From assembly GCA_017537515.1 (NCBI GenBank), contig JAFYKO010000122.1, positions 3,866-67,865 of the forward strand: a stretch of DNA of 64,000 bases, given 5' to 3'. Both the position numbers and the translations under genes were made by a program. Positions 29,059 to 55,623 of the stretch are shown here, piece by piece (position 1 is the stretch's first letter; each line of letters opens with the position of its first letter). Source of the DNA: Clostridia bacterium. Lineage in GTDB: Bacteria; Bacillota; Clostridia; Christensenellales; UBA1242. The notes beneath the pieces were generated by a model. It saw only the letters and a list, made by a program, of their open reading frames with translations, was not told where the DNA came from and did no database searches.

Positions 29059-29065
29059 TAAGCGT

Positions 29066-30704: not shown

Positions 30705-32213
30705 TTAGAACGGTTCGGGTTCGCCCATTTCAGCGGGGTTCGGGGCTTCGTTTTCGCCCCCGTTCGCTTCGGGTCCTTCTTCGCCACCCTCGCCACCTGC
30801 GGGGCTGTATTCCTTTTCAACGTCGCTAATCACGTCGTTTTCTTCTTCGTCGGATTCTTCGCCACCCTCGGTAGAACCGCCATTGTCGTCGTTCACAATC
30901 TGTGTGATAGCGTCGGCAAGAATGCCAATGACATTCATATTGTCTTCGTTCTTGTGATACGACAGGGCGTTCTTCAAGGTCTTGCAGGCTTCGCCAAGAG
31001 CCTGGAACGATTCAACAGCGTTCTTGACGGCTTCTTCTGCGTAGATAACTTCGTCGTCAAATTCGCCCGCCAGGGAAGCGTCCTTGACAAGTTTATCGCA
31101 GCAGTGAAGCACGGACTTCGTAAGGACTTCAAACTTCTTACCGAGTGTCGGAGCCTTGCGGACGTAGGATTCAACGACGATACCCACGACAGCGAAGCCT
31201 TCTTCAACTTCGGCAAAGGTTTCAGCGGATTCAAGGGCTTCGTCTTCAAGGTTGAAGAACAGGGAAGTAAAAGAGTTCCACAAGGTAGAAATCTTGTCCT
31301 TGAGCGTAGAAACAAGTTCTTTGAGTTTGTCAATAAGACCTTCGGACACAAACGCTTCGGTCGGGATAGTATCAATATCGCCCTTGGAAAGCGTAGTGAT
31401 TGTGGTCTTGATAGTTGCTTTCGGGGTGGACGCTTCCTTGACAATCTGTTCCACCAGGTCACGGAGTTCCTTGAACTGCTTGGGGTCAATGACCGCTTCT
31501 TCAATCTTCGGAGCAGAATCAAGCAAGGCGTTCATACGTTCAAGAACAGGCGTGAGTTTTTCAACGGTGTCCTTGTTCTTTACCCCGTGAGTAGCAGAAG
31601 TGACAGCCACAAGTTTCACAACGTCTTCTTCGGACATAAGCCCGTCAGCGATGCTGTCCTTGATAGTCTGTGCGTCCACTTCAATAGCACGATTAGCGTT
31701 GTCAACCCAGGCGGTCACAACCTTGTCGCCACGGGTGGCATAACGGCTGTCAATAACTGTCAGCAGTTGGGTCACGTCGGGAATGTTCTCATAATCGGAA
31801 TAAAGGATTTTGAGAGCGTCTTTAAGGTGTTTTTCAACGTCGGCAGCAGCCTTGACTTCGGGGGACTTATTGAACGTGAGTGCGTCCTTGATACCCTTTA
31901 CGGACTGCTGCTTCAAGAACAGGACGTGAGCGGAAAAGTCATTGAGAGCCTTGATAGACGCTTTCAAATCTTCCTTGGATTGAGCCAGGTCCTTCGCCTT
32001 GTTTTCCATAAACTTGCGGTGTTCTTCCAGGACGTTGATGATTTCGCCCAGGTTCCGCATTTTGGAAAAGTCAGTTCGCTTGGACATACCCGCACCGAAA
32101 CTTGTGGCTTCGGATTTCTTGGATTCAGCCCTGCGAGCAATCGGGCTACGCTGTGCAGCGGGAGCCACACGGCTTTCAAACTTATGTGTATTGATTTTCA
32201 ATGCCATATTCAA
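30705..32213 (-). CDS. head-module protein with N-terminal propeptide ending in ESKKSE, coiled-coil body and acidic tail (502 aa)
   Basis: M(NM)ALKINTHKFES...RRAESKKSE/ATSFG. Long helical middle. C-terminus GGEESDEEEND...GEPEPF. Confidence 0.65.
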   Translation of the reverse strand: MNMALKINTHKFESRVAPAAQRSPIARRAESKKSEATSFGAGMSKRTDFSKMRNLGEIINVLEEHRKFMENKAKDLAQSKEDLKASIKALNDFSAHVLFLKQQSVKGIKDALTFNKSPEVKAAADVEKHLKDALKILYSDYENIPDVTQLLTVIDSRYATRGDKVVTAWVDNANRAIEVDAQTIKDSIADGLMSEEDVVKLVAVTSATHGVKNKDTVEKLTPVLERMNALLDSAPKIEEAVIDPKQFKELRDLVEQIVKEASTPKATIKTTITTLSKGDIDTIPTEAFVSEGLIDKLKELVSTLKDKISTLWNSFTSLFFNLEDEALESAETFAEVEEGFAVVGIVVESYVRKAPTLGKKFEVLTKSVLHCCDKLVKDASLAGEFDDEVIYAEEAVKNAVESFQALGEACKTLKNALSYHKNEDNMNVIGILADAITQIVNDDNGGSTEGGEESDEEENDVISDVEKEYSPAGGEGGEEGPEANGGENEAPNPAEMGEPEPF

Positions 32214-32220
32214 TTCTCCC

Positions 32221-32769
32221 TTAATCTACACGATATGCGAGCATACCGTTTTCAAGTCCAACTTCCTTGCTGTCATAGATAGCAAGGTGCCAAGCAGGGT
32301 CAAGGCGGTCAATGTTATATTCAGCAAATCCCCTGTAATTCACACTGAAATTCGGGGCAACCTGTTCTTGGACGAATTTAGCAAATTCTTCTTTGCCCAA
32401 ATCGTCTGCAAGACTTTCAATTTCGTCCCTGTCTTCCCCGTCAGCGTCAACAAAGTCCAGGAACGTATCGTTCCCGAAGTAGTCAATGGCTGCACCCAAA
32501 ATGGTATAGTTGTCACGGAACTGCGATTCAAGGTCGTCAACGGCTGCGTCGTAAGCAGACTGCTCATTGTCATACACACAATACGTGGCGGTTTCCCCGT
32601 CTTTCATTTTCACGTCAAGGACATATTCGGGTTCCAGGTAATCGTAGTCCTTGGAACTTTCCTTTACATTACGAACAGGGACACCTAGTTCCTTTGCAAG
32701 TGCCTTACGTGCGTCGCCCAGGTCTTCGCACTTCTTTGTTTCGTGAACACGGATTGTCATTTTAGACAT
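32221..32769 (-). CDS. head-module protein with N-terminal targeting-type peptide (182 aa)
   Basis: MSKMTIRVHETKKCEDLG shares the M..KI.VHE.KK.E pattern. Confidence 0.6.
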   Translation of the reverse strand: MSKMTIRVHETKKCEDLGDARKALAKELGVPVRNVKESSKDYDYLEPEYVLDVKMKDGETATYCVYDNEQSAYDAAVDDLESQFRDNYTILGAAIDYFGNDTFLDFVDADGEDRDEIESLADDLGKEEFAKFVQEQVAPNFSVNYRGFAEYNIDRLDPAWHLAIYDSKEVGLENGMLAYRVD

Positions 32770-33594: not shown

Positions 33595-35700
33595 TTACTG
33601 AATCACCAGATACATTCCCTTGTCGCTCTTGTATGCGTCAAGGTCGCCATCGTCAATGGCTGCTTGAATACATTCGCCCTTGGATTTGTTTTTGTCCTTA
33701 TACTTGTCGTCAAGCATTTCGCCGTAAACACGTTCTTCGTCAGCCCAATCCGTGTATTGGAACAGATTGTCAAAGAACTCAAAGGCAGAACCCTGGATTT
33801 CGCCCATTTCGGAATAGTATTCCCAAAGAGCATCCCAATAGTCTTCGTCTTCGTCAAGGTAGGCAGCAGCAGCACACAGACGCATAAACGTGTTATAGTC
33901 AATGTTCATCTTGATTGTGTCACTGATACCTTCGGACTTTTTGGATTCGGAAAGAACCTTACTAACTTCTCCGTAGTCCAGGTTATCGCCCGCAGCATTC
34001 GGAAGGAAATCACCGCCCTTGTCGGTCCACAAGGAACTGACACCCTTCGGGTAAGCATCGCACACAGCGGACACGTCAGCCAACTTGCCACGGATAGTAA
34101 TAGTGCAGCCGATAGCGTCGGATTCCACGTTCGGGAACTTTTTCTTAATCTGCTTCAAGGTGCGTTCAATCCACTTCTCGCTTGAACTATCCAACGTTCC
34201 TACAACCACGGTGTCCTTTGTCAAGGCTTCGGATTTCTTGGCTTCAGGCTTTTTCGCCTCGCCCTTATCCCTACAACGCTTGCAAAGACCACCATAGCGG
34301 TCATAATCATATTCGGTCATAACTGCCCCGCAAGAGTCGCAGCGTTCCATACTCTCTTTCTTACCGTCCTTACAAGATTCGGGTTTCTTGGATTCTTCCA
34401 ACTTACCACCAAGAACATCTGCAAGTTCTTCGGAGGCTTCCTTGCTAGGCAGATGAACGTAAAAGACATTCTCGTAATAGTAATCGGCCCGTCCATCGCC
34501 CCCTTCTATCTTGATAGTAAATTCGGGGTCGCCCTTTGCCTGGTCTTCATCAAAAACAATATCATCGCCATCACCCTCATAGGTATAATACTTGGATAAA
34601 ACATCCACTACATCTTCAAGCAAATACTCTGCGTCAGCATATCTCAAAAGGTCTTCAAACCCAATGTAAGTTTCAATTTTAGTAGTGACACGCTCGTCGT
34701 TATTGCCAACCTTCCAAAAGCCGAAGCAGGCTCCGTCACCTTCGGATGCTCCGAAGAAATATCCGTCGGGTGCAATGCCGTTGAGTGCGTCAGTGAGTTC
34801 GTCCACAAGCATAGACTTCGTTTCGTCGTCAACGTCGTCCCAGGACTGAATTTCAAGGATTTCGGGATAGTCCTTCAAGAACTTGGAGTGGGCGGTTTCG
34901 TCGTGCTTCAAGGCGTTAAGGAACTTCGGAATAAGGTCTTCGGGCTTCAAGGTGCCATCGGACACAACCTTGTCTTTCAAGGCTTCAACACCCTCGGACT
35001 TCTTGGATTCGGGGACCTTACTAACCACTGATTTCAGCCAACCCTTCGGGTCCCTCATAATATCGTCAATGTCAGTCCCTTCATCAACCCATTCGCCATT
35101 ATCGTCGCACACATAAACGCTACTCAACTCATTATCTAGGAACTGAACACCGAACGTCAATGTCTTACCACCACTAGCATACAGATAATCAAACAAATAA
35201 GTGTCCTGCGAAACACCCTCAATGTCGTCTGTGAAGTAATCGTCAAACACAAACATTTTAAGGTCATCAAGATTCTTCAAAAACGCCCTGGCTTTTTTAA
35301 ACATATCATTCCTAGCGTCTTCGTTAAAACTCTTCGTGGGAAGACCATCAGACTTCTTGGATTCGTTCTTGTCACACCAATCCTGGATAGCCCGTACAAG
35401 TTCGTCAAGTTCGTCAACATAGTCGCGTTCTTCGGGTAAGTCGGTGTCCATACTGCCCTTGCAGTCGTCACGATACTTCTTGACCTTTTCAAGAATATCC
35501 TTGTAGGAAAATTCAGTCGTGCCGAAGTTCAAGTCAATGTCGCCCAAGCCGAACTGACCATTGTCTTCGGAACCACTGTGAACGAACGCAAAACCCTTTT
35601 CAGTGAGCGGGTCGTATTCATCAAGCCACGGGGAAAAGCCACCATAACCTTCAATGTGGTGGCAGAAGTCGGTATATTTTGCTGCGTCCTGTTTAATCAT
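33595..35700 (-). CDS. head-module polyprotein, ~6 segments separated by ESKK(S/P)(E/D) linkers (701 aa)
   Basis: Linkers NESKKSD/G, PESKKSE/G, EESKKPE/S, EAKKSE/A and SESKKSE/G. One segment carries a zinc ribbon, CDSCG...CKRC. Confidence 0.7.
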   Translation of the reverse strand: MIKQDAAKYTDFCHHIEGYGGFSPWLDEYDPLTEKGFAFVHSGSEDNGQFGLGDIDLNFGTTEFSYKDILEKVKKYRDDCKGSMDTDLPEERDYVDELDELVRAIQDWCDKNESKKSDGLPTKSFNEDARNDMFKKARAFLKNLDDLKMFVFDDYFTDDIEGVSQDTYLFDYLYASGGKTLTFGVQFLDNELSSVYVCDDNGEWVDEGTDIDDIMRDPKGWLKSVVSKVPESKKSEGVEALKDKVVSDGTLKPEDLIPKFLNALKHDETAHSKFLKDYPEILEIQSWDDVDDETKSMLVDELTDALNGIAPDGYFFGASEGDGACFGFWKVGNNDERVTTKIETYIGFEDLLRYADAEYLLEDVVDVLSKYYTYEGDGDDIVFDEDQAKGDPEFTIKIEGGDGRADYYYENVFYVHLPSKEASEELADVLGGKLEESKKPESCKDGKKESMERCDSCGAVMTEYDYDRYGGLCKRCRDKGEAKKPEAKKSEALTKDTVVVGTLDSSSEKWIERTLKQIKKKFPNVESDAIGCTITIRGKLADVSAVCDAYPKGVSSLWTDKGGDFLPNAAGDNLDYGEVSKVLSESKKSEGISDTIKMNIDYNTFMRLCAAAAYLDEDEDYWDALWEYYSEMGEIQGSAFEFFDNLFQYTDWADEERVYGEMLDDKYKDKNKSKGECIQAAIDDGDLDAYKSDKGMYLVIQ

Positions 35701-35727: not shown

Positions 35728-36609
35728 TTACTTTGCGTAGTAGTCCATAGCGTTGTCAAACGCTGCGTAGTTGGCTTTCTTACGATATTCGGAAGTCGTA
35801 GCCTTGTCGCTAGACGAAGCCCAATAAATGTCATACGGCTCTCCTACAATGTCTCCACTAGGCTTTTCACGTTCGCCCGCCATAACCACAGCAAACACAA
35901 CCCCGTCATCGTCCTTGTAGCAGTCAATGATTTTCTTTGCGTCTTCAATGGCATCGTCGTCGGAGTAGTATGTTTGGGAAGCAGCCATATCGTCAATGCG
36001 GTCTTCTTCCCCGTCAGCGTCAATGCGGAACAGGTCAATGGTGAACACGTCCTTGTCGCCCTCGGCTTCGGACTTCTTGGATTCAGCAGTTTCAACCTTG
36101 TCGGTAAAATCCGCAAAGGTAATACCGCTGTCGTCGTCCGAACCACCGAACAACTCACGCATCACGTCGTCCTTAATATCCTGGTCAAATACCACAACTT
36201 CGTCGTAATAGCACCAAAGTTCTTCAACTTCGTCCAGGCTATCAATAGTGCCCGCAAAAGAATAGGGGCGACCCAAATCCTTGTTCGTGACTATGATTTC
36301 GTAATAGCCCTTATAGACGTTGAACTTGCCGTCCATATAGTAAGTGCTTGCGTCAGTCATACCTGCGAAATGTTCCATTTTACGGCAGCACTGCGGGTCG
36401 GCTCCGTCCACTTCGTCAAAGTCCTCCTGGTCATACGGCTGCAATTTAAGGGTTCCGTCGTCATTCACAGCGATTACTTCTGCAAACGCCATTTCGTGAA
36501 TCAACTTACCCCCATCCTTTTCAGCGTCGTAATCTACGAAATCGCCAACCTGGAAATTGCCGACGGCTTCGGACTTCTTGTTTTCGTGGACGTTAATCTT
36601 CATAGTCAT
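35728..36609 (-). CDS. head-module protein with N-terminal targeting-type peptide and one internal ESKKSE (293 aa)
   Basis: MTMKINVHENKKSEAVG and TAESKKSEAEG. Confidence 0.65.
   Translation of the reverse strand: MTMKINVHENKKSEAVGNFQVGDFVDYDAEKDGGKLIHEMAFAEVIAVNDDGTLKLQPYDQEDFDEVDGADPQCCRKMEHFAGMTDASTYYMDGKFNVYKGYYEIIVTNKDLGRPYSFAGTIDSLDEVEELWCYYDEVVVFDQDIKDDVMRELFGGSDDDSGITFADFTDKVETAESKKSEAEGDKDVFTIDLFRIDADGEEDRIDDMAASQTYYSDDDAIEDAKKIIDCYKDDDGVVFAVVMAGEREKPSGDIVGEPYDIYWASSSDKATTSEYRKKANYAAFDNAMDYYAK
36067..36084 (-). repeat. 18-mer GAATCCAAGAAGTCCGAA (encodes ESKKSE), perfect copy
   Basis: Identical 18-mers at 36067, 36905 and 49177. One-mismatch copies at 32109, 33931, 34993 and 37931. 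Copies with 2-4 mismatches at 34228, 34378, 35348, 36568, 37244, 38204 and 44374. Confidence 0.9.
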
Positions 36610-36679: not shown

Positions 36680-38254
36680 TACGAAATAGAACAGGTTGCT
36701 GCTACGGGCGGTAATGGCATATTTCTTGCCGTCATTATCACGGAGCAAGGCACCGTTCATTCCGTAAGTCCCACGGCTCACACCGACAAGTTCAATGCCC
36801 TTCTTGCGAAGTTCCTTTGCTTCTGCGTCGGAAATAGTCGTAATGTCTTCGGCTTCCCCGTAGCGGACCATATCTTTCAATTCTTTCTGTTTGAGCGACA
36901 GGCTTTCGGACTTCTTGGATTCAGCATTACGGGTCCAATCATTCTTCGCACAATAGCCCTTGATTACACTTAAAAGTTTATTGACTGCTTCTTCGGGGGT
37001 GTAATCTTTTGCATAATACGAAACAGACCTATCAAAGTCATCATCCGTATAAGTGTGGAAATACTTTGTCCCCACAGTCCCCAACTGCTGCGAAAGTTCA
37101 TTACGCTTAACAAAAATAGTATAAGCAGCATCGGTGCCACTGCGACTATCCGTGATTTCGTCATATTCAATGTCAAAGCCATAATCGTCCTTTACGGCTT
37201 CCAAACCTTTAACGACTTTATCCTGCCAATCGCTTATGAACGCATTGGACTGCTTGGATTCAGCAGTGTTGCTTTCGTCGTCACGCCAATCCGCTTCAAT
37301 TTCTTCCCAAAAATAGATATTCATTTCACCAATGGAGTGTCCCTCATCGGGAATGCCTATAAGGTCTGCGATTTCTTCGCAAACGCCATAGCAGCGGTTC
37401 CACTGATTTGCGTCGGCTTCGTCACGGGTGTCATCGTCTTCGTAATCGCCAACCACAACGAACTTAAACCCGTAGCCGTCCCATTCAAAATTGTTGTCCA
37501 AGATTTCAACAATATCGGACATATTTTCCTGGACGGCTTCAAGGTCAAGGTTGTCTGCAATGGTCTTGCGGTCCTTGTCGGAATTAGACCACCTGTCAGC
37601 CCATTCTTTCATACCCTTAAAGATATTAGTGACTTCTTCTTCCTTTGTGCGGTTTTCGTGCTGCTTGCTTTCGGGAAGGTAGTCACCATCAAAGTTGCGG
37701 GTGGAAGTGTAATACCACTTGCCGTCCTTGTCGCCATAGTAGGACTGTGCTACAAGGTTGCCGTTAGTGTCAAGGGCGTAACCTGCGGTATGGAGCCACT
37801 GCGAGTCCTTAATGTCGTTGAACTGCTTGCTAGTCGTGACTTCCACGGCTCCAAGTTGCTTCATCTTGTTAATAAGGTCTGCACGGGAACGATACTGACG
37901 CTTACCGCCCAAACGCTTCGGGGGAAGACCCTCGGACTTCTTGGATTCGCTTGCTGATTCCTGTGTCAATTCATACCCATCAATAGTTTCCATAAAACTA
38001 TTCCAACGCACTACCAACTTATACTTAACACCGTTGTCAGTCATAGTGTAGGTCGTAACACACGTCTTCGTGCCATTAGGGTATTCTTCTTTTTCGGACA
38101 ACCATTCCCAACCCCAACCAATAAGGTCATCTTCACTATACGGTTCACCGTCCATTGTGTCCATATACGAACGGAAATCCTGGATAAATTCGGATTCAGC
38201 AGCCTCGGACTTCTTGCTTTCTTTAACGGCAATCTTGAATTTCTTGTTAGACAT
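36677..38254 (-). CDS. head-module polyprotein, ~6 segments separated by ESK(K/Q)(S/H)(E/N) linkers (525 aa)
   Basis: MSNKKFKIAVKESKKSE/A, then SESKKSE/G, PESKQHE/N, AESKQSN/A and AESKKSE/S. Confidence 0.7.
   Translation of the reverse strand: MSNKKFKIAVKESKKSEAAESEFIQDFRSYMDTMDGEPYSEDDLIGWGWEWLSEKEEYPNGTKTCVTTYTMTDNGVKYKLVVRWNSFMETIDGYELTQESASESKKSEGLPPKRLGGKRQYRSRADLINKMKQLGAVEVTTSKQFNDIKDSQWLHTAGYALDTNGNLVAQSYYGDKDGKWYYTSTRNFDGDYLPESKQHENRTKEEEVTNIFKGMKEWADRWSNSDKDRKTIADNLDLEAVQENMSDIVEILDNNFEWDGYGFKFVVVGDYEDDDTRDEADANQWNRCYGVCEEIADLIGIPDEGHSIGEMNIYFWEEIEADWRDDESNTAESKQSNAFISDWQDKVVKGLEAVKDDYGFDIEYDEITDSRSGTDAAYTIFVKRNELSQQLGTVGTKYFHTYTDDDFDRSVSYYAKDYTPEEAVNKLLSVIKGYCAKNDWTRNAESKKSESLSLKQKELKDMVRYGEAEDITTISDAEAKELRKKGIELVGVSRGTYGMNGALLRDNDGKKYAITARSSNLFYFV
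36905..36922 (-). repeat. 18-mer GAATCCAAGAAGTCCGAA (ESKKSE), perfect copy
   Basis: See 36067..36084. Confidence 0.9.
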
Positions 38255-39869: not shown

Positions 39870-41519
39870 CTAGCCGTTGCTAGAACCGCTACCACTACCG
39901 CCATTCGGAGTCGTAGTCAAGAAGACATTGACATCCGCAGGGGCTTCGGCATCCTTCGTAATCACGATACGTTGGACAAATTCAGCCACAACAGGTTCAA
40001 TAGCCTTCCAAGACGCAATAGCACGTTGAGTTTGGAACGGGTTATCTGCCACAGGCATAGTGTCAGTCAAGAAGACAGGCATATACGTTGCACACACAAC
40101 AGGTGCTTCAAACGGGCTATTATCGCTGCTATAAGCAGCAATAACTTCGTTCGGAGCCACGATGGTGTTGGAACGGATAACCGTGATACCTTCGTTTTCA
40201 AGGGTGCCATACACGTGCGGACCCACAAGGTTGGTCTGCGGAGCAAGACGGAAACCAGGGAGGGACGCAATATACTGACAAGCGACGTAGCCCGCAACAA
40301 TCTTGTTAGCGTGACCCTTACCTGCACGGCTACCGATAGCAGCAGAAGCAGCCTGGATAGCATACAGGAAAGACTGACGGTGTTCAAATTCGCTGATACC
40401 TGCGGTCTTGTTGAGATTCCAGGTAATCGGCTTCCACTTGTTAGCACAACGGACATAGGCAGCAAGAATCTTTTCGGATTCAGCCATAGCCATATGACCC
40501 GTAAGGTCAGCAAGAACTTCGTCGGACGCAGCCTTACCAAAACGCTTGTTGAATTGGAAAGACTTGAACGTGCCCATCATTTCCTTCAAGCCAATGATTT
40601 CGGCACTGACAACCTTGTTGTCAAGAGCGTATTCAATAGCAGGAACGTCGGGAGCCTTTTCAAAGTCAACGTCATAAGTCACACCACCCTGGTAGCCCGT
40701 CGGAATGGTAAGAACCAGGTCGGGACCAACAGCAGCAGCGGTCACGGAAACCTTACCATAGAAAGTCGGCAACTGACCAGGACCACCGCAAACACCAACC
40801 ACGTCTTCAACGTTGCCGTTCTTGTCAACAAGACGGACGTTAATCGGGGTGTTCCAACGGAGGTTGCCAACGCCATACTTAATGGTAGCAGAACCGTCAG
40901 CAGCGATAGCAAACTGACGTTCACTCATATACTGCGTCGGGGAAGCCTGCCAACCCTTGAGGGCGTTGAAAGTGATAGCGTCAAAGTTCTTGGCTGCGAG
41001 TTGTTCGGCAGTCAGTTCGGTGTCGGGGGCAGCAACGGGACGACCACGGGTGTCAAGCCACTTCTTCCAGGCACCTGCGAAAGTCTTGTCGCCTTCAAAC
41101 TTACCGTCGGCACCCATCCACCTGTCTTCGGGCAGGGACGGAAGTCCTTCCTGGGCAGTCAGCGGATAGCCGTGGGTAAAGGTCTTCTTGAAGTAGATAA
41201 GACCCTGGGATTCTTCAAGCGTCTGCACACTTGCCAACTGCGGAGCAATAGAAAGTGCGTAGGTAGCAGAAATAAGGTCAAGAGCAACACGGGGCAACAC
41301 ACCAAGGCTAGAAGCCGAGGAATTTTCGTTCACGAAACTTTCGTAACGCTTGTAGTTGTCCATCTGCTGACCAAGGTTGAACATAGCGTTCTTGGACAAG
41401 GTGCCCTTGAACGACGGGGACTTGGCAAGGGCTTCAAACTGCTTGCCATAGCGGGCTTCGTAGGATTCTACGAGGCGGTTGTATTTCTGATTAGACATTT
41501 CTTCAACGGAAGTCTTCAT
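39870..41519 (-). CDS. major capsid protein, HK97-fold / T4 gp23-like (549 aa)
   Basis: Follows the protease, core-protein and scaffold genes and is followed by the strongest terminator in the window. LPRVALDLISATYALSIAPQLASVQTLEESQGLIYF resembles the gp23-family ...IAFDICGVQPMNSPTGQVFAL block. Confidence 0.75.
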   Translation of the reverse strand: MKTSVEEMSNQKYNRLVESYEARYGKQFEALAKSPSFKGTLSKNAMFNLGQQMDNYKRYESFVNENSSASSLGVLPRVALDLISATYALSIAPQLASVQTLEESQGLIYFKKTFTHGYPLTAQEGLPSLPEDRWMGADGKFEGDKTFAGAWKKWLDTRGRPVAAPDTELTAEQLAAKNFDAITFNALKGWQASPTQYMSERQFAIAADGSATIKYGVGNLRWNTPINVRLVDKNGNVEDVVGVCGGPGQLPTFYGKVSVTAAAVGPDLVLTIPTGYQGGVTYDVDFEKAPDVPAIEYALDNKVVSAEIIGLKEMMGTFKSFQFNKRFGKAASDEVLADLTGHMAMAESEKILAAYVRCANKWKPITWNLNKTAGISEFEHRQSFLYAIQAASAAIGSRAGKGHANKIVAGYVACQYIASLPGFRLAPQTNLVGPHVYGTLENEGITVIRSNTIVAPNEVIAAYSSDNSPFEAPVVCATYMPVFLTDTMPVADNPFQTQRAIASWKAIEPVVAEFVQRIVITKDAEAPADVNVFLTTTPNGGSGSGSSNG

Positions 41520-41537: not shown

Positions 41538-42035
41538 TTAGGCTTTCTTGCCAATTTTGGAACGGAACTTCGCACGTGCTTCACCGATTGCCTTCTTACG
41601 GGCTTCGGCAGTGGAAGTAGAAGTTTTGGCTTCTGCTTTCTTTGCAGCACGACGGGCTTCAAGTCGCTTGCGGAACGCTTCGGCACGAGCCTCGTTGCGG
41701 GCGGGTGCGGTCTGCTTCTTTGCAGAACGACGGGCTTCAAGACGCTTACGGAATGCCTCACGACGAGCAGCCTTGCGGGATTCTTCAGCACCTTCATCTT
41801 CACTACCTTCAACGGAAGCGGAACCAAGAACTTCTTCTTCTTCCACGTCTTCCTTGGAGTTAGTAAGAACTGCGACGGTCACAGAGTTTTCGTTTTCGGG
41901 GTCGGGGGAAACGACAACCTGGATGTCCTTTTCTTCGTCAGCGAAAACAACTTCGGTTTCCTTGGCATCCAACTTAACGTCGCCAACTTCCACGATGCTA
42001 TCTTCTTCACGGAGTTTCTTGCGGAATTTAAGCAT
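41538..42035 (-). CDS. putative scaffolding protein (165 aa)
   Basis: Directly upstream of the capsid gene. Acidic N-terminal half, basic helical C-terminal half with a tandem 26-aa repeat EAFRKRLEARR(S/A)AKK. Confidence 0.5.
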   Translation of the reverse strand: MLKFRKKLREEDSIVEVGDVKLDAKETEVVFADEEKDIQVVVSPDPENENSVTVAVLTNSKEDVEEEEVLGSASVEGSEDEGAEESRKAARREAFRKRLEARRSAKKQTAPARNEARAEAFRKRLEARRAAKKAEAKTSTSTAEARKKAIGEARAKFRSKIGKKA

Positions 42036-42385: not shown

Positions 42386-42745
42386 TTAAGCAACGACTTC
42401 GTTATAAATCTTCCTGGCGTATTCTTCGGCTTCGGCTGCACCGAACGGGGAGCCGTCCACGGGACTGCCCGAAAGACCTGCAAGGATTTCGTCAACCCAT
42501 TCGTCTTCGTTCTGTGCTGCGGTAGGACCATCAGCATAACTACGAATATACCACTTACCACACATTTCAGCCACGGCTTCGTCTTCAATGGTAAATTCTT
42601 CGGTATGACTCATAATTTCGGCACACAGGCTTTCAATGGCTACGGGTGCGTCATACGGCAGGTCATCCAACAAACCTTCGCACTTATTGGACTTATTCGC
42701 AGCAAGACTTTCTTTTTTCTTCTGCATAGAGCATTTGTATGTCAT
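42386..42745 (-). CDS. putative head core protein with MTYKCSMQKKKESL N-terminus (119 aa)
   Basis: N-terminal 14 aa are identical to the neighbour 42770..43459. Lies between protease and scaffold. Confidence 0.6.
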   Translation of the reverse strand: MTYKCSMQKKKESLAANKSNKCEGLLDDLPYDAPVAIESLCAEIMSHTEEFTIEDEAVAEMCGKWYIRSYADGPTAAQNEDEWVDEILAGLSGSPVDGSPFGAAEAEEYARKIYNEVVA

Positions 42746-42769
42746 AGTGTTACCTTTCCTTTTGCAGAC

Positions 42770-43459
42770 TTAATCTGCTTTAACTTCAATGGTCTTGTCG
42801 CCCTGGCTAAACGAATAGTTGGCGAATGCTTCTTCAACAGCCTTAATGAACTTGTCCGCATTTTCCTGCGTAAGTTGTCGGTAGTCCAAATACATTTGAA
42901 CACTCAAATAATTCCCGATAGTTTCACCACCGTCATATTCACGACCGATAGAAGCAGACAGGGTATAAGCAACACCACGCATAGACCGCTCATACATTTC
43001 TATGGCTGCGACACCCCAAAGGTTCATATCCCCCAAGAAACCCATCAAGTATTCCGTGTAATCGTCATACCCGTCGGAATCCTTTTCGGGAACTTCCCCG
43101 TGGTCCGAAGCATACGCCATATCCGCAGCGTCAATAGCCTTTTCAATTTCATAACCCAACTGACTATCGTGGAAACCCGAACTTTCAAAGAAACCCAAGT
43201 TTCCTACAAAATCTTTCTGCAAGCCTGCCTTGAAACTATCACGGGGCGAACCATCGCTGTAAGTGTTATAAAGCACTTCAACGTCGTGGGCTTCCCACCC
43301 ATCGCCACCCTGCGTGTCGTTCATATCATAGTCTTCAAGAATTTCACGGGCACGGGGTTCAATGAACTTGCTGTAAAATTCTCCTGCCACTACGGGAGCA
43401 GACTCAACCTTTTTGTTAAGACTTTCTTTCTTCTTTTGCATAGAACACTTGTAAGTCAT
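42770..43459 (-). CDS. putative head core protein with MTYKCSMQKKKESL N-terminus (229 aa)
   Basis: Shares its N-terminal peptide with 42386..42745. The same CSMQKKKESL occurs internally in 48610..49569. Confidence 0.6.
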   Translation of the reverse strand: MTYKCSMQKKKESLNKKVESAPVVAGEFYSKFIEPRAREILEDYDMNDTQGGDGWEAHDVEVLYNTYSDGSPRDSFKAGLQKDFVGNLGFFESSGFHDSQLGYEIEKAIDAADMAYASDHGEVPEKDSDGYDDYTEYLMGFLGDMNLWGVAAIEMYERSMRGVAYTLSASIGREYDGGETIGNYLSVQMYLDYRQLTQENADKFIKAVEEAFANYSFSQGDKTIEVKAD

Positions 43460-43501
43460 AGTGCTTCTCCATTATACTCTTGCAAGTATAGCCATTTAAG
43501 T

Positions 43502-44119
43502 TTACGCCTTGTATTTGTTATACATTTCTTCCACCAACTTCAAGGCTTCGTCTGCGGACTGCGTGTCCTTGATTTCGCTGCCGTTAGCAGCCTCGGCAAC
43601 GACGAAACCGAAAGCACCGACCATACAACTAACTTCCCCGTCTTCGGTATAGGCATTGTCAATTCCACCAGGAACGTCGCCCATATCGTTAATATCGCCC
43701 AGGTAATAGCCTAGTTCAAATTCCTTGCCCTTTGTAACGTCCACAATCTGCTTGGCGTAAGCGTCACGCAGGGCACCCACGTCAATGTAGCCGACAAGTT
43801 CCAGGGCTTCGGGCAGAACAGCCTTTTTGTATTCGTCAGCCATAATAGACTTGACCTTTTCGGCACCAGGATTGTCCTTGAAAGCGACCATAAGGTAATT
43901 GTCGCTCACGGTGGCTTCGTCAACGTCCCAGGACATATCTTCTACATCCCAGGCTGCGTCGGGTTCAACATCTTCCTTACCCTTGAACACAGCAAGTCCG
44001 TTAGCCCTGTAAAGCGACGGAAGTTCGTATTCAATGTCGGATTTCAACGTGGCGGGCAGAAACACAAGACCCTGTGCTTCTGCCTGTCGGCTTTCGTGAA
44101 GATTTATTCGGAGTGCCAT
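43502..44119 (-). CDS. putative head core protein with N-terminal targeting-type peptide (205 aa)
   Basis: MALRINLHESRQAEAQG. Confidence 0.6.
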   Translation of the reverse strand: MALRINLHESRQAEAQGLVFLPATLKSDIEYELPSLYRANGLAVFKGKEDVEPDAAWDVEDMSWDVDEATVSDNYLMVAFKDNPGAEKVKSIMADEYKKAVLPEALELVGYIDVGALRDAYAKQIVDVTKGKEFELGYYLGDINDMGDVPGGIDNAYTEDGEVSCMVGAFGFVVAEAANGSEIKDTQSADEALKLVEEMYNKYKA

Positions 44120-44121
44120 AA

Positions 44122-44418
44122 TTAGTCCCTGTAAAATACCAAACCGTCAGTGCCACCCTTCTTGTCAAGGGCTTCCATAGTGCCACGGAAGTAGCAGGCA
44201 GCGTGGTAAATCGTGGTGGTTTCTTCGTCAAGCAATTTGTTGTCAGCGTCGTAAAGAGCAACCCTGAACCTGCGGTTTCCTTCATCGGTAATAACCACGC
44301 AGCGGTCATCCTTACTAACGTGCCAATCAAGAGCATTGTTAATGTTCAAGTCACCCAGGCGAACGTCCTGGGCTTCGGACTTCTTTTCTTCGTGGACACA
44401 AATTTTCATTTTAGCCAT
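44122..44418 (-). CDS. putative head core protein with N-terminal targeting-type peptide (98 aa)
   Basis: MAKMKICVHEEKKSEAQD. Directly downstream of the protease. Confidence 0.6.
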   Translation of the reverse strand: MAKMKICVHEEKKSEAQDVRLGDLNINNALDWHVSKDDRCVVITDEGNRRFRVALYDADNKLLDEETTTIYHAACYFRGTMEALDKKGGTDGLVFYRD

Positions 44419-44430
44419 AGTGAGCCATCC

Positions 44431-45474
44431 TTAACGTTTGCTGCCGAGAATATAACCAATCAAGGACCCGTCGTTATCTTCGGCTTCACGGGCTGGTGCC
44501 TTTGCTTCCAAGACCTTAAAGGTCTGCGTTTCGGGCTGCTCACGTTCAATCGCTTCGTAAGTAGCACCTGCACGACGACGTTCGGTCACGTAGGCTTCGT
44601 TCAATCCATTCTTGTTAGCGAACTTCAAGTCACGGATAGTGTCTGCGGACTGCTTCACTTCTTCCTGCAAGCCTTCCACGAACTTCACGATAGACTGCTT
44701 AATGTCTTCGTTCACTTCGGTAAAGTCTTCAAACTTGTAAGTGTCGCCCGTGCCCTTGTCACAATCTGTCATTTCAACAGTATTGTTTTCCAGGCTTTCC
44801 ACAATATAGGTGCTGCCGTCAAGTTCAACAGGTGCCCCAAGTTCCTTTGCAAGAGAAAGCAGGGATTCTGCGACACGTTCCTTAACGGCTTCTTCAACCT
44901 TTTCGTTCTGCTTGCTTTCGGAAATCATCTTCGGCTTTGCGTCCAGGAACCCAGGGTCCTGCACAAAGTCAAAGCGTTCAAGTTTGTAGGTCTTCGGGTC
45001 AAGAATGTCGTTGCCGTCTTCGTCCTTGCCTTCGTAGTCGCCATCGGCACGGGAACTGACAAACATAGTAGTACCCGCACGAAGAATGGTGTAAAGCGTC
45101 TTGCCCATATCCGTATTGTAGATAACAGATTCAGCGATACCCGTCTTCCAATCAATGTTGCGGGTAATGTGGCTAAACTTGCCGTCGGCAATATCTTCGT
45201 CGGTAATTTCGGCTTCGTGACCGATACGACCGAACATTTGTCCGTTGGTCAACTTACGCTGCACGTCTTCGTCCTTGCCTGCTTCTTCCCAAAGTTCGGG
45301 AGTGTAAAGACGGTGGTTACGGCTTACCTTGCCAGGGCAGAAATGCTGACCCTTGACAATGGCGAGAATGGTGCCACCACTTTTAGCAACTTCGGATTGT
45401 GCGGATTCGTCAACACGGGAAATGTCGTCAATGAACTCACACTTAAACGGAATATAATCTTCTGCAATCTGCAT
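44431..45474 (-). CDS. prohead maturation protease, T4 gp21 family (347 aa)
   Basis: Collinear with T4 gp21 as I recall it: SRNHRLYTPELWEEA (gp21 NRNKRLYPKRILEKA), FGRIGHE (LGELNHP), ILRAGTTMFVSSRADG (IRAGWIPGVSSRGLG), FDFVQDPGF (VDAVWGPSA). Confidence 0.85.
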   Translation of the reverse strand: MQIAEDYIPFKCEFIDDISRVDESAQSEVAKSGGTILAIVKGQHFCPGKVSRNHRLYTPELWEEAGKDEDVQRKLTNGQMFGRIGHEAEITDEDIADGKFSHITRNIDWKTGIAESVIYNTDMGKTLYTILRAGTTMFVSSRADGDYEGKDEDGNDILDPKTYKLERFDFVQDPGFLDAKPKMISESKQNEKVEEAVKERVAESLLSLAKELGAPVELDGSTYIVESLENNTVEMTDCDKGTGDTYKFEDFTEVNEDIKQSIVKFVEGLQEEVKQSADTIRDLKFANKNGLNEAYVTERRRAGATYEAIEREQPETQTFKVLEAKAPAREAEDNDGSLIGYILGSKR

Positions 45475-45501: not shown

Positions 45502-46173
45502 TTAACGCTTGTTAGACGGACGGACGGTGGCGGTCGGGACTGCTCCAAGCGACGCAGCGGACGCACCCCCGCAATCTTCTTTCAACGACTTGTGGAAGTC
45601 ATCGCTAGAATAGAACTTGCGGACAATGCCCGTGTTGCCGTCGTCATAAGCCATACGGAACACGTCTGCGATATACGGCTCAACAATGTCATAAGCGTAG
45701 TCAAACACAGCGTCGCTAACGTCGCCCTTGATAACGTTAAAAGTCGGCTCGCCCATCGCACTTTGATAAATGCTCATAAAGAGCAGGTCGGACAACTTGT
45801 CCCCGTCGCCCTTGAAATAGATTTCGTAGTTGTCATTACCAATCGGGACAACCTTGAAGAACTTCGTTTCAGCACGGTCGTCAAATTCAGCAAGCAACTT
45901 GCGAACTACGTCCTTGAAATCGTCCCATTCTTCCTTGCCGTCGGCATAGCGGTTCGGGTCTTTCTTGTCGGCAGACCCGTAAAAGATACCTTCCGAAACT
46001 TTTACAGCGGAACGGATAGGGGCGGTCACGTTCACAAGGTCGCCCAAGTCCCCGTAAGTGCGGGGAATGAGTTCTTCATAGCGAGCCTGGGCAGCATCCT
46101 GGCTAGTGAACAATTCAACTTTCTTCTTACCAAAAACGTCTGTATAACTGATAGACCAATTAGCCATATCCAA
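45502..46173 (-). CDS. hypothetical head-module protein (223 aa)
   Basis: ORF track. Confidence 0.6.
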   Translation of the reverse strand: MDMANWSISYTDVFGKKKVELFTSQDAAQARYEELIPRTYGDLGDLVNVTAPIRSAVKVSEGIFYGSADKKDPNRYADGKEEWDDFKDVVRKLLAEFDDRAETKFFKVVPIGNDNYEIYFKGDGDKLSDLLFMSIYQSAMGEPTFNVIKGDVSDAVFDYAYDIVEPYIADVFRMAYDDGNTGIVRKFYSSDDFHKSLKEDCGGASAASLGAVPTATVRPSNKR

Positions 46174-48609: not shown

Positions 48610-49569
48610 TTATCCCTTGGGGAAGTTAGCCACAATGTCGTCAAGGACATTAAGAGCGTTGTCAAGTTGGTAGCCTACGGAGCAATCGGCATCGGACACA
48701 AGACCGCTACCCTCAATGGAAGCATAGTTGCCACGCAGATATGCACGAACTTTACGCATTGCGTCTTCCACGTCCTTCGGGAGCGAAACATCGGATTCGT
48801 TCTTCTTTGCGAGCAGGCTTTCCTTCTTCTTCTGCATAGAGCAGACGTGCTTCTTGGATTCATTCGGGGCATACAGGGCTTTCAAGATACGGGTAATTTC
48901 ATTATCCAACGGTGTGTGCTTAATGCCCTCAATGTTTTCCAACCAATCACGATACGGTCTGTCGGGTTCGCTATCACTTTCGGGATGGAACTCCATATAG
49001 TAGCCAACAATTTCATCGGCTTCTTTCTGCTTAAACGGACCGTCTGTCTTAATATCGGAAAAATAGTCAGCCCAATCTTCTTCGCTCTTACCATCTTCAA
49101 TAGCAAGTTGGCAGCATTCCTTGTAGGCTGCGTCAAACATATCCTGGTAATACTTCTTGTCCTTGACTTCGGCTGCTTCGGACTTCTTGGATTCACCCTT
49201 CTTCAAAACCTTGTCAATAAGCGGAAGCGGGTCAAATTCGCCAACTTCTCCCTCAACCTTATTAAGCAAGTTTGCGTCATCGTCATAACAATGGCATTCA
49301 AGCCAGGACTTCCCATCACCCAGGTCAGTATTAAGGACAAGCACGATTTCCGTGCCAGGATTCTTACCCTCAATATCGTCAAGAATGACCGACCATTCGT
49401 TAAAGTCGTCACTACGGCTGTCATTGAAACCGTTACCGACGGAACACTTGTCACCAACCACAGCACTGACGGCTTTGGTAAATTCGGGGGCAATGTCGTC
49501 ATACTTACGGGCAAGGTCATTGCCAACGACCTTGCCATACTTCTGTGCAAACTGCTGAATAGCGTTCAT
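48610..49569 (-). CDS. head-module polyprotein with ESKKSE and CSMQKKKESL linkers (319 aa)
   Basis: KKGESKKSE/AAE and PNESKKHVCSMQKKKESLLAKKNESD separate three segments. Confidence 0.65.
   Translation of the reverse strand: MNAIQQFAQKYGKVVGNDLARKYDDIAPEFTKAVSAVVGDKCSVGNGFNDSRSDDFNEWSVILDDIEGKNPGTEIVLVLNTDLGDGKSWLECHCYDDDANLLNKVEGEVGEFDPLPLIDKVLKKGESKKSEAAEVKDKKYYQDMFDAAYKECCQLAIEDGKSEEDWADYFSDIKTDGPFKQKEADEIVGYYMEFHPESDSEPDRPYRDWLENIEGIKHTPLDNEITRILKALYAPNESKKHVCSMQKKKESLLAKKNESDVSLPKDVEDAMRKVRAYLRGNYASIEGSGLVSDADCSVGYQLDNALNVLDDIVANFPKG
49177..49194 (-). repeat. 18-mer GAATCCAAGAAGTCCGAA (ESKKSE), perfect copy
   Basis: See 36067..36084. Confidence 0.9.
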
Positions 49570-55395: not shown

Positions 55396-55623
55396 CTAAA
55401 ATTCCTCCAGGGCTTTGTCAACCGTATTTTCGGCAGCGTCCTGCGTAAGACCGCCAACAGGGATAGAAAGAACCATCACGTCACTGTCGTAAACGTCAAT
55501 AGCCACTCCCTTGTCGTCAGCAGACACCGCAGCGGAATAACCCGCAGGCAAATTCCTGTTGGTATATTGCTTCAACGCCTGTGCGTCAAGTTCGCTCGCC
55601 TCGTTTTTCTTGAACTTCCTCAT
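55396..55623 (-). CDS. hypothetical protein (75 aa)
   Basis: ORF track. Confidence 0.5.
   Translation of the reverse strand: MRKFKKNEASELDAQALKQYTNRNLPAGYSAAVSADDKGVAIDVYDSDVMVLSIPVGGLTQDAAENTVDKALEEF

What the first reader, a model, noticed from the sequence alone, without database searches (positions are those of the whole stretch)
42386..44418. Shared N-terminal M..KI.VHE.KKSE peptide on at least six head-module proteins (candidate capsid-targeting propeptide)
The N-termini align as follows. MTMKINVHENKKSEAVG (gene starting at 36609), MAKMKICVHEEKKSEAQD (44418), MALRINLHESRQAEAQG (44119), MSKMTIRVHETKKCEDLG (32769), M(NM)ALKINTHKFES...ESKKSEA (32213) and MSNKKFKIAVKESKKSEAAE (38254). The mature parts are unrelated. 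The conserved portion ends in the same KKSE motif used as the internal linker. This mirrors the T4 capsid-targeting sequence: roughly 10 N-terminal residues on IPI-III, Alt and gp68, removed by gp21 after a Glu. Four of these genes sit between the protease and scaffold genes, where T4-like phages keep their core proteins.
Basis: partly seen in the sequence, partly recalled or inferred. Interest (0 to 1): 0.65.

Follow-up and report, generated by a model that had tools for sequence, protein, structure and literature searches.

The report
Shared leader peptides on capsid cargo
An uncultured ~213-kb phage with a T4-type head puts the same short N-terminal peptide, ending in a likely protease cut site, on many unrelated proteins encoded beside its capsid genes; this looks like a new version of the T4 tag that loads proteins into the capsid, but cleavage and packaging are untested.

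Summary
All six quoted N-termini are in the sequence. Among 2,080 pairs of N-terminal 20-mers from 65 window genes, the nine best-scoring pairs all involve these genes, and the mature parts are unrelated.

- There are two leader classes. Class A is M(xK)M-K-I-K-V-H-E, strictly N-terminal. Class B is M..K-C-S-M-Q-K-K-K-E-S-L and sits on the other two genes in 42386-44418.
- The tail of class A equals a heptapeptide junction, E-S-K-K-S/N-E-A/G/S, which also joins domains inside polyproteins. It occurs 12 times against 0.03 expected.
- In 16 related contigs (capsid protein 65-99% identical) the same cargo domains follow leader A, leader B or an internal junction. Leader codons vary synonymously.
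- AlphaFold leaves exactly residues 1-16 disordered.
- The adjacent protease is gp21-like, with the catalytic His and Ser conserved. It carries the junction motif where T4 gp21 has ITE|S.
- More distant relatives carry their own, more T4-like leaders.

Best reading: a T4-CTS-like propeptide and junction system for capsid-internal cargo. Cleavage and targeting are inferred, not shown. I rate it a new variant of a known kind.

The parts
44374..44418 (-). Class A leader of the 98-aa gene 44122-44418: MAKMKICVHE|EKKSE|A
   Evidence: This is the first gene after the protease.
44078..44119 (-). Class A leader of the 205-aa gene 43502-44119: MALRINLHE|SRQAE|A
   Evidence: I5, E9 and E14 are invariant in 23 homologues. 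AF2 pLDDT is below 50 for residues 1-16 and about 95 afterwards.
43424..43459 (-). Class B leader of the 229-aa gene 42770-43459: MTYKCSMQKKKE|SL
   Evidence: E 6e-7 with an HMM built from relatives only. The same cargo sits behind leader A or an internal junction in relatives.
42677..42745 (-). Class B leader of the 119-aa gene 42386-42745: MTYKCSMQKKKE|SLAANKSNKCE|G
   Evidence: Homology to the cargo in L015 and L001 starts at G24.
38204..38254 (-). Class A-like leader of the 525-aa polyprotein 36677-38254: MSNKKFKIAVKE|SKKSE|A
   Evidence: The protein has two further internal junctions, at 37928-37948 and 36902-36922.
36568..36609 (-). Class A leader of the 293-aa two-domain protein 35728-36609: MTMKINVHE|NKKSE|A
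   Evidence: An internal junction AESKKSE|A lies at 36064-36084. The AF2 model of domain 2 becomes ordered right after it.
32725..32769 (-). Class A leader of the 182-aa gene 32221-32769: MSKMTIRVHE|TKKCE|D
   Evidence: best class A hit. In L001 the same cargo follows an internal GESKKNE|D junction.
32109..32213 (-). Extended class A-like leader of the 502-aa gene 30705-32213: (MN)MALKINTHKFE|S...RRAESKKSE|A
   Evidence: Relatives have MSLKIKTHKFES...ESKKSEA.
33595..35700 (-). 701-aa polyprotein with no N-terminal leader but six ESKK.E-type junctions, starting at 35364, 35010, 34395, 34260, 34245 and 33948
   Evidence: In relatives its domains occur behind leaders, for example the ALKDKVVSDGTL domain.
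48610..49569 (-).
   Evidence: E 3e-5.
44431..45474 (-). gp21-like prohead serine protease. It carries a junction-like site MISE|SKQNE at 44899-44919, at the end of the catalytic domain, and an N-terminal MQIAE|D.
   Evidence: phrog_207 at 4e-22. Pfam S77 at 1e-4, below the curated cut-off; the His and Ser aligned to T4 H85 and S140 are invariant.
41538..42035 (-). Scaffold-like protein: 165 aa, an acidic N-terminal half and basic AFRKRLEARR repeats, encoded immediately upstream of the capsid gene
   Evidence: Assigned by position and composition only. It has no family match.
39870..41519 (-). Gp23-like major capsid protein with a conserved candidate propeptide site, V63-N64-E65|N66 (E65 codon at 41325-41327)
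   Evidence: The T4 gp23 propeptide is also 65 aa.
55396..55623 (-). Candidate extra small cargo of 75 aa that starts MRKFKKNE|AS
   Evidence: only. Weak and not followed up.

Best explanation
**What it is.** The window carries the head module of an uncultured jumbo phage; related contigs reach 213-215 kb. The head machinery is T4-type, with a gp21-like serine protease and a gp23-like capsid protein. Around these genes lie at least 10 genes for capsid-internal 'cargo' proteins.

**How the cargo is built.** Each cargo domain is preceded by a short, unstructured, Lys/Glu-rich module of one of three kinds.
- Class A leader, M(xK)M-K-I-K-V-H-E-S-K-K-N/S-E-A, found only at N-termini.
- Class B leader, ..K-C-S-M-Q-K-K-K-E-S-L-A-K-K-S-E-A, found at N-termini and internally.
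- The bare junction, E-S-K-K-S/N-E-A/G/S, found between domains of polyproteins.

**Proposed mechanism, by analogy with the T4 CTS.**
1. The leader, and possibly the junction itself, binds the scaffold/protease core while the prohead assembles, so the cargo is built in.
2. The activated protease then cuts after the conserved Glu residues: V-H-E| and K-K-S-E| in the leader, and E|SKKSE| in the junctions. It also cuts its own MISE|SKQNE and the capsid protein's VNE65|N.
3. Single folded domains of about 80-200 aa are released. They stay in the head and are presumably injected with the DNA.

**Consequence for evolution.** Because every domain is bounded by the same module, domains are shuffled freely between genes and genomes.

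**Shown:** the shared modules, their enrichment, peptide-level selection, domain shuffling at the modules, the disorder of the leader, and the protease family with its catalytic residues.

**Inferred:** cleavage at these sites, packaging, targeting by the leader, injection, and the function of the cargo.
For: - Leaders and enrichment.
- 16 related contigs carry dozens of genes with the same two leaders: about 90 regex hits, all but one on the coding strand and at ORF starts.
- The class A core occurs 38 times at N-termini and never truly internally in 74,147 residues.
- Consensus logos show that the tail of leader A equals the internal junction.
- The same cargo family sits behind leader A, leader B or an internal junction in different genomes.
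- In the alignment of the 293-aa protein, domains are exchanged exactly at ESKKSE. E176, K178 and K179 are nearly invariant while mean column identity is 22%.
- Leader codons vary synonymously and the upstream DNA is unconserved.
- Both leader Glu are invariant in 23 homologues.
- AF2 gives pLDDT below 50 for residues 1-16 only, with 89.8 overall. Domain 2 of the 293-aa protein becomes ordered right after the junction.
- The protease is gp21-like with invariant His and Ser. A near-invariant hydrophobic-x-E|S lies at the end of the catalytic domain, reading ISE|SKQNE here and ITE|S in T4.
- The capsid protein has a conserved V-x-E65|N, and the T4 gp23 propeptide is also 65 aa.
- The cargo set differs even from L001, whose capsid protein is 99% identical: blastn finds no match, or only fragments, for most cargo genes. 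T-even IP loci behave the same way.
- Distant relatives (protease 36-46% identical) and cultured Ralstonia phage RP13 have arrays of unrelated small genes sharing other, T4-like leaders that end in Glu.
Against: - No virion, proteomic or cleavage data exist for this uncultured phage.
- Some cargo lacks any N-terminal leader: the 701-aa and 319-aa polyproteins, the 239-aa MLEPDNQKVYF protein, and L003 12174. The leader therefore cannot be the only route into the head.
- Class B and the junction also occur internally, so they may be cleavage modules only.
- The residue three before the cut (P3) is aliphatic in V-H-E, as in T4. It is not consistently hydrophobic before E|SKKSE.
- The leaders have no sequence similarity to the T4 CTS.
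- The protease's Pfam S77 score, 21.9 bits, is below the curated cut-off of 27. phmmer finds no solved structure.
- Cargo proteins have no recognisable domains or folds, so 'injected effector' is a guess.
- The junction DNA is nearly uniform, GAATCCAAGAAGTCCGAAGCC. A DNA-level contribution to its spread cannot be excluded.
Confidence: 0.6

Rival explanations
1. The modules are cleavage-only junctions. The prohead protease, or another protease, cuts there, but they do not target anything. Cargo would enter the prohead through its folded domains or by passive trapping, and the N-terminal 'leader' is simply a junction that happens to come first.
For: - Leaderless polyproteins use the same junctions.
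- Class B and ESKKSE occur internally as well as at N-termini.
- The same cargo family occurs with and without a leader, for example the MLEPDNQKVYF family.
Against: - The unique N-terminal part of class A (MxKMKIKVH) is strongly conserved across the clade and never occurs internally. A pure cut site would not need it.
- In T4, the targeting and processing determinants lie side by side in a 10-aa peptide.
- Distant relatives keep clade-specific leaders of 12-16 aa, longer than a cut site needs.
Confidence: 0.22
2. The shared N-termini are a nucleic-acid-level feature or an evolutionary leftover with no role as a peptide. They could be a conserved translation-initiation region, a recombination hotspot or microhomology that moves cassettes, or the remnant of gene duplication.
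For: - The junction DNA is nearly uniform and uses preferred codons.
- Cassette exchange clearly happens at these sites.
- A-rich codons after ATG are common in well-expressed genes (general knowledge).
Against: - Synonymous variation without amino-acid change occurs in both leader classes: 5 of 14 codons between the two class B copies, and AAA/AAG, ATT/ATC/ATA and GTC/GTT/GTA in class A.
- Upstream DNA is not conserved beyond a GGAG-type ribosome-binding site.
- The motif is found only in the coding frame.
- Glu positions are invariant while their neighbours vary.
- Capsid, scaffold and other late genes lack the leader.
- Mature parts are unrelated, yet the same mature domain carries different leaders. 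That is the opposite of simple paralogy.
Confidence: 0.08
3. The proteins are not capsid contents. The leader would serve another purpose, such as an export or secretion signal, a degradation tag, or a pro-sequence that keeps toxic early or late proteins inactive until a protease cuts them in the cytoplasm.
For: - Cargo functions are unknown.
- There is no virion evidence.
Against: - The genes sit inside the head module, between protease and scaffold/capsid and between capsid and tail sheath.
- The leader is hydrophilic and has no signal-peptide features, as the sequence shows directly.
- The motif also marks the protease's own C-terminal processing-equivalent site.
- The closest precedents for Glu-terminated shared N-terminal peptides next to a gp21-type protease are capsid propeptides.
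Confidence: 0.07

Closest known systems
T4 capsid-targeting sequence (CTS) on internal proteins IPI/IPII/IPIII and Alt, removed by the gp21 prohead protease
   Same: - A short N-terminal peptide shared by otherwise unrelated head-internal proteins, ending in Glu. In T4 it is MKTYQEFIAE|A on IPII and IPIII and is 10-19 aa long.
- An aliphatic residue at P3: I-A-E in T4, V-H-E here.
- A gp21-family protease and a gp23-family capsid protein.
- A cargo set that is hypervariable between close relatives while the leader is kept.
   Different: - No sequence similarity to the T4 CTS.
- Two leader classes rather than one.
- An alternating basic/aliphatic pattern (K-I-K-V-H) instead of T4's pattern.
- The leader carries a second conserved Glu site that equals a 7-aa junction.
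- Cargo is often encoded as multi-domain polyproteins with up to six junctions.
- Cargo genes are clustered inside the head module. T4 ip genes are scattered.
- Nothing has been tested experimentally.
Propeptides of inner-body and ejection proteins of phiKZ-like giant phages (phiKZ gp175, SPN3US gp245, 201phi2-1)
   Same: - A jumbo phage with a diverged gp21-like protease that cuts after Glu.
- Many internal head proteins are processed.
- Several cut sites per substrate.
- The SPN3US paralogues gp53 and gp54 share an identical 15-aa N-terminus containing cut motifs.
   Different: - The phiKZ-type motif is a minimal S/A/G-x-E, and its propeptides are mostly longer than 100 aa.
- Here the leaders are short, the junction is a well-defined heptapeptide, and unrelated domains are shuffled combinatorially.
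- The capsid protein and protease here are closer to the T4, RHph_TM30 and RP13 types than to phiKZ.
Encapsulin cargo-loading peptides (general knowledge, not tested here)
   Same: A short, conserved, disordered terminal peptide that directs diverse cargo into an HK97-fold shell. It can be used to mine cargo from genomes.
   Different: - Usually C-terminal.
- Not removed by a protease.
- Binds the shell protein directly.
- Not a virus.
Leader-bearing small-gene arrays in other phages with this protease family (found here: IMG/VR loci L033, L035, L036, L039, L046, L048; Ralstonia phage RP13)
   Same: Arrays of small head-module genes that share only their first 12-16 residues, ending in Glu. 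Residues 17 to the end are mutually unrelated.
   Different: - Their leaders are a different, T4-like amphipathic type, such as MNKAQKLLxxIE, MSKARDILxxIE and MSLAGNIIRIIE.
- I did not see ESKKSE-type junctions or polyproteins in them.
- I did not find them described in the searchable literature.

Membership tests
T4-type capsid-targeting sequence (CTS) system | A short (about 10-20 aa) N-terminal peptide shared by head-internal proteins whose mature parts are unrelated | tested here: met
   Eight window genes carry a leader, and the mature parts give no BLASTP hit at E<=1.
T4-type capsid-targeting sequence (CTS) system | The peptide ends at a gp21-type cut site: Glu at P1 and an aliphatic residue at P3 | tested here: met
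   In sequence only. In 39 unique class A leaders, P1 is E in all 39 (the search pattern required E, so this count is by construction) and P3 is V in 29, L in 4 and I in 2. E9 and E14 are invariant in an unbiased family alignment. Actual cleavage was not testable.
T4-type capsid-targeting sequence (CTS) system | A gp21-family (S77) prohead serine protease encoded in the same genome | tested here: met
   phrog_207 at 4e-22. BLASTP against T4 gp21 gives E 6e-7 with T4 H85 and S140 aligned, and both are invariant in the family alignment. Pfam S77 is only sub-threshold: 21.9 bits against a cut-off of 27.
T4-type capsid-targeting sequence (CTS) system | Sequence homology to the T4 CTS (MKT[YF][QK]EF...E) | tested here: not met
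   Direct comparison of the T4 N-termini with M..KIKVHE and KCSMQKKKESL shows no similarity. This is an analogue, not a homologue.
T4-type capsid-targeting sequence (CTS) system | The peptide is necessary and sufficient to load a protein into the prohead core, and is then removed | not testable with these tools
   This needs reporter fusions and virion mass spectrometry. Leaderless cargo argues the leader is not strictly necessary.
T4-type capsid-targeting sequence (CTS) system | Cargo genes are hypervariable between close relatives while the leader is conserved | tested here: met
   The window and L001 have capsid proteins 99% identical. Between protease and scaffold, the window has 4 genes and L001 has 6, largely different. 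Leaders are conserved in all 16 loci.
phiKZ-like inner-body/ejection-protein propeptides | An S/A/G-x-E cut motif and long (>100 aa) N-terminal propeptides | tested here: not met
   The motif here is E-S-K-K-S/N-E and V-H-E. Leaders are 12-35 aa.
Sec/Tat/lipoprotein signal peptides | A hydrophobic core region, or a lipobox before the Cys | tested here: not met
   The sequence shows it directly. Leaders are Lys/Glu-rich with no hydrophobic stretch, and the Cys of class B is preceded by K, T or F-K rather than a lipobox.

The most novel reading that the evidence does not exclude
The heptapeptide E-S-K-K-S/N-E-A/G/S is at once the protease recognition site and the capsid-recruitment tag, with class A and class B as N-terminal elaborations of it. 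Any domain flanked by it would be docked on the protease/scaffold core, built into the prohead and then cut free. That would make a plug-and-play 'cargo polyprotein' system that lets this phage clade shuffle and inject dozens of unrelated effectors. Clade-specific leaders of this kind would then be a general, unrecognised feature of phages with gp21-like proteases, and could be mined to catalogue injected proteins from metagenomes.
Probability: 0.25. Interest if true: 0.8.

Novelty: new variant of a known kind. Interest (0 to 1): 0.6.

Why it matters
If the model is right, it has four uses.
- It gives a sequence handle, in the form of leader and junction HMMs, for listing the proteins an uncultured jumbo phage packs into its head. 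Such proteins probably enter the host with the DNA and are otherwise invisible, because none has a known domain.
- It extends the T4 CTS principle to non-T-even lineages. Each clade would have its own leader, which suggests the principle is general for gp21-type proteases.
- The defined 7-aa junction and the polyprotein layout would be a compact, engineerable way to load several foreign proteins into a capsid.
- It offers a natural example of domain shuffling at protease sites.

If the model is wrong, the strong conservation of these peptides still needs an explanation.

Tried and rejected
- **Near-identity DNA search.** Searching 30-50 kb of the window against cultured phages found nothing.
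- **Cultured relatives.** The closest ones (IME392, RHph_TM30, Ab1, Va2) have portal, protease and capsid genes with no cargo arrays, so they gave no proteomic anchor. RP13 has T4-like leaders, but I found no paper with its virion proteome.
- **Family searches on cargo.** PHROGs and Pfam on all window cargo and on 10 large cargo polyproteins of relatives gave no meaningful family.
- **Protease against solved structures.** phmmer found no hit. I used pairwise BLASTP against T4 gp21 instead.
- **HSP start positions.** I tried to show domain boundaries from the start positions of the BLAST local alignments (HSPs) relative to the motif. This was uninformative because the motif itself aligns. I replaced it by cutting proteins at the motif and clustering the segments.
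- **A first HMM** built from the four window leaders was circular. I replaced it with HMMs built from relatives only.
- **AF2 of the 293-aa protein** gave only a mediocre model, pLDDT 58.6, which I use cautiously.
- **Literature searches** returned only T4 and SPN3US/phiKZ work.
- **Explanations considered and rejected:** signal peptide or lipoprotein signal (no hydrophobic core); a purely DNA-level repeat (synonymous variation, coding frame only); simple paralogy (the same cargo carries different leaders).
Full report
**1. Setting**

Almost every gene in the window is on the minus strand. Reading in the direction of transcription, the order is:
- 44431-45474: a head-maturation protease. It matches phrog_207 at 4e-22. 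Its Pfam Peptidase_S77 hit is 1e-4, below the curated cut-off.
- Four small genes: 44122-44418, 43502-44119, 42770-43459 and 42386-42745.
- 41538-42035: a 165-aa scaffold-like protein, acidic then basic. It has no family match, so this label rests on position and composition alone.
- 39870-41519: a Gp23-like major capsid protein (Pfam Gp23 2e-10, phrog_138).
- 38555-39742: an inserted TnpB-type transposase.
- Six more genes of unknown family between 30705 and 38254.
- 27756-28919: one 387-aa gene.
- 25493-27754: the tail sheath.

No cultured phage is close at the DNA level. The nearest capsid and protease proteins are only 25-40% identical. They belong to Rhizobium RHph_TM30-like phages, E. 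coli IME392/EP_H11, Ralstonia RP13, Vibrio Va2 and Acinetobacter Ab1. IMG/VR holds 16 related loci with capsid proteins 65-99% identical. Several lie on contigs of 213-215 kb, so this is an uncultured jumbo-phage clade.

**2.

All six quoted N-termini are there exactly. An independent gene caller gives the same gene lengths.

I aligned the first 20 residues of 65 window genes all against all. The nine best of 2,080 pairs all involve the leader genes, scoring 38-74 against a median of 12. Their mature parts share nothing at BLASTP E<=1.

HMMs built only from relatives recover the four tight class A genes as the top four of 1,023 six-frame segments. They also recover the class B genes at E about 6e-7.

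They share a second leader, MTYKCSMQKKKESL, identical over 14 residues with five synonymous codon differences.

**3. Anatomy of the modules**

Unique instances from the window and 16 loci give three consensus modules.
- Class A is M(xK)(M/L)-[K/T]-I-[K]-V-H-E-S-K-K-N/S-E-A, from 39 instances.
- Class B is (K)(F/Y)K-C-S-M-Q-K-K-K/I-E-S-L-A-K-K-S/N-E-A, from 22 instances.
- The internal junction is E-S-K-K-S/N-E-A/S/G, from 107 KK.E contexts, 73 of them with E at -5 and 65 with S at -4.

A class A leader is therefore a unique N-terminal piece, MxKMKIKVH, fused to the generic junction. The KKSE part is dispensable in some relatives (MGKMKIKVHEAVSD, MPKLKIMVHEAKSD).

The class A core occurs 38 times at N-termini and never truly internally in 74,147 residues. 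Class B and the junction occur both at N-termini and inside long ORFs.

In the window the strict junction E[SA]KK.[ED] occurs 12 times against 0.03 expected. The looser KK.E[ASGD] occurs 21 times against 1.4. The motif appears only in the coding frames and almost only between 30.7 and 49.6 kb.

Two polyproteins carry junctions but no N-terminal leader. One is the 701-aa protein at 33595-35700, with six junctions. The other is the 319-aa protein at 48610-49569, which has one junction and an internal class B motif.

**4. Selection acts on the peptide, not the DNA**

Within the leaders, Lys, Ile, Val and Glu codons vary synonymously. The DNA upstream is unconserved apart from a GGAG-type ribosome-binding site.

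In an unbiased alignment of 23 homologues of the 205-aa protein, going down to 53% identity, I5, E9 and E14 of the leader are invariant while their neighbours vary.

The junction DNA is fairly uniform, GAA TCC AAG AAG TCC GAA GCC. It mostly uses the genome's preferred codons, with some synonymous and conservative changes. Microhomology may help cassettes move, but it does not explain the conservation.

**5. The modules bound shuffled cargo domains**

I cut all head-module proteins at the motif and clustered the segments. The same domain family then appears behind different modules in different genomes.
- The window's 229-aa cargo has leader B here. It has leader A in L004 and L003, and internal ESKKSE|S or ESKKNE|A in L001 and L002.
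- The window's 119-aa cargo has leader B here and in L015. It has an internal junction in L001 and L003.
- The 182-aa cargo has leader A here and GESKKNE|D in L001.
- The 'KRTVQPPSYDVYTYDEL' domain has leader A in L009, leader B in L010 and L003, and an internal class B motif in L002.

The alignment of homologues of the 293-aa protein shows domains exchanged exactly at ESKKSE. E176, K178 and K179 are nearly invariant while mean column identity is 22%.

One homologue of the 205-aa protein has an extra DUF4313 domain attached through DESKKSES.

The gene set between protease and scaffold differs even from L001, whose capsid protein is 99% identical. Protease, the 205-aa gene, scaffold and capsid are 93-97% identical in DNA. 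For most other cargo genes blastn finds no match or only fragments.

**6. Structure**

AlphaFold models the 205-aa protein confidently, with mean pLDDT 89.8. Only residues 1-16 fall below 50, and those residues are exactly the leader.

The 293-aa model is mediocre at pLDDT 58.6. Even so, residues 1-16 are again disordered, and the second domain becomes confident from about residue 183, directly after ESKKSE181.

The cargo fold matches nothing in PDB or BFVD, and no cargo has a Pfam or PHROG function.

**7. The protease links the motif to cleavage**

The protease is 31% identical to T4 gp21 over 149 residues (E 6e-7). T4 His85 and Ser140 align to its GHE and VSSR motifs. Both residues are invariant in a family alignment that includes T4 and five cultured phages.

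At the end of the catalytic domain the family has a near-invariant hydrophobic-x-E|S. T4 reads ITE|S. This clade reads I[ST]E|SK[KQ][NK]E, which is the junction motif. T4 gp21 is known to be processed C-terminally, and all gp21-type proteases studied cut after Glu. That this particular site is the autocleavage site is my inference.

The capsid protein has a conserved [FY]-V-x-E65|N, and the T4 gp23 propeptide is also 65 residues. The protease N-terminus MQIAE|D resembles T4 gp21 LIE-9.

V-H-E in leader A has the aliphatic P3 and Glu P1 that matter for T4 CTS processing, where residues 8 and 10 of MKTYQEFIAE are the determinants.

**8. Comparison with T4**

T4 IPII and IPIII both begin MKTYQEFIAE|A, and IPI begins MKTFKEF...ITE|A. 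These 10-19-aa propeptides target proteins to the scaffolding core and are then removed. The IP sets of T-even phages are highly diverse and share only the CTS.

The present system matches that logic point by point, but the sequences are unrelated, so it is an analogue rather than a homologue.

In T4 the core genes 67 and 68 lie between portal (20) and protease (21), and the ip genes are elsewhere.

**9. Generality**

A search with a protease family alignment found more distant loci, with proteases 36-46% identical. Several of them, and cultured Ralstonia phage RP13, carry arrays of small genes around the protease and capsid genes. These genes share only their first 12-16 residues.
- L036: MNKAQKLLxxIE, 10 genes.
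- L039: MSLAGNIIRIIE, 7 genes.
- L048: MSKARDILxxIE, 10 genes.
- L046: M[SG]I.KDLLxxIxE.
- RP13: MTTAKDLLKKIEEA, MSLAKQALSKISES and others.

Residues 17 to the end gave no BLASTP hit among themselves in any of the four loci tested.

These leaders look more like the T4 CTS and also end in Glu. A clade-specific leader on unrelated head-module proteins therefore seems common among phages with this protease. That independently supports the reading of the window's leaders as capsid propeptides.

**10. Verdict**

The best explanation is a CTS-like leader plus junction system for capsid-internal cargo, processed by the gp21-like protease.
- About 0.7 that these are protease-removed propeptides or junctions.
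- About 0.5 that the leader itself is the targeting determinant.
- 0.6 overall.

The main rival is that the modules are cut sites only. Leaderless polyproteins favour it. The strictly N-terminal, strongly conserved MxKMKIKVH piece argues against it.

I found no description of this clade or these motifs in the searchable literature. It is a new variant of a known kind. The new elements are two novel leaders, a defined heptapeptide junction, and combinatorial cargo polyproteins.

Noticed in passing
L036, L039, L048, L046, L033, L035 (IMG/VR loci); L021 (Ralstonia phage RP13): Distant relatives with gp21-like proteases carry arrays of small genes sharing other N-terminal leaders that end in Glu, for example MNKAQKLLxxIE, MSLAGNIIRIIE and MSKARDILxxIE. 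In the four loci tested (L036, L039, L048, L021) the mature parts are mutually unrelated. This looks like a general, undescribed pattern.
   Followed up: partly
window 38555-39742 (-), 29021-30394 (+), 53287-54582 (-): A TnpB/IS200-605-type transposase (phrog_506, 8e-89) is inserted between the capsid gene and the cargo array. L001 has an 80%-identical copy elsewhere in the opposite orientation. Two further TnpB-like ORFs with similar N-terminal regions lie in the window.
   Followed up: partly
window 41538-42035; L003 9416-9982, L004 6668-7237, L005 9416-9982, L015 9407-9976: The scaffold-like protein has its two halves in swapped order in some relatives. The basic NEAR..AFRKRLEARR repeat is C-terminal in the window and N-terminal in L003, L004, L005 and L015. 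A KKLRE|(D/E)D motif sits at the boundary.
   Followed up: no
window 45502-46173 (C-terminus) vs capsid protein 39870-41519 (residues 66-78): The 223-aa protein encoded upstream of the protease ends in ...GGASAASLGAVPT. This resembles the capsid protein's SSASSLGVLPR, which lies just after its putative cut site. L008 3414 has the same motif near its N-terminus.
   Followed up: no
window 55396-55623 (-): A 75-aa ORF starts MRKFKKNE|AS. It is a possible further short-leader cargo gene outside the main module.
   Followed up: no
window 34225-34395 (inside 33595-35700): A tiny zinc-ribbon-like module, CDSCG...CKRCRDK of about 45 aa, is bracketed by the junctions EESKKPES and EAKKPEAKKSEA. A relative's polyprotein (L001 12978) has a weak zf-RING hit.
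   Followed up: no
upstream of window 36609, 12612 and 18246; L009 5595-5633: A recurring AT-rich DNA motif, TTATATTTA(G/A), lies upstream of several gene starts. When ORFs are called from non-ATG starts it is translated as 'LYLG'. It may be a promoter element.
   Followed up: no
L028/L029 vs L010/L009 (contigs 3300021399_000234 and 3300021255_005861): In the sub-clade with 73% capsid identity, the protease gene lies about 30 kb from the capsid gene instead of next to it. It still has a leader A gene (MIIKVHEHKVKEA) immediately upstream.
   Followed up: no
P0041 (homologue of window 43502-44119): One homologue of the 205-aa protein carries a C-terminal PF14190 (DUF4313) domain joined through DESKKSES. 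It is the only cargo-linked Pfam family I saw.
   Followed up: no
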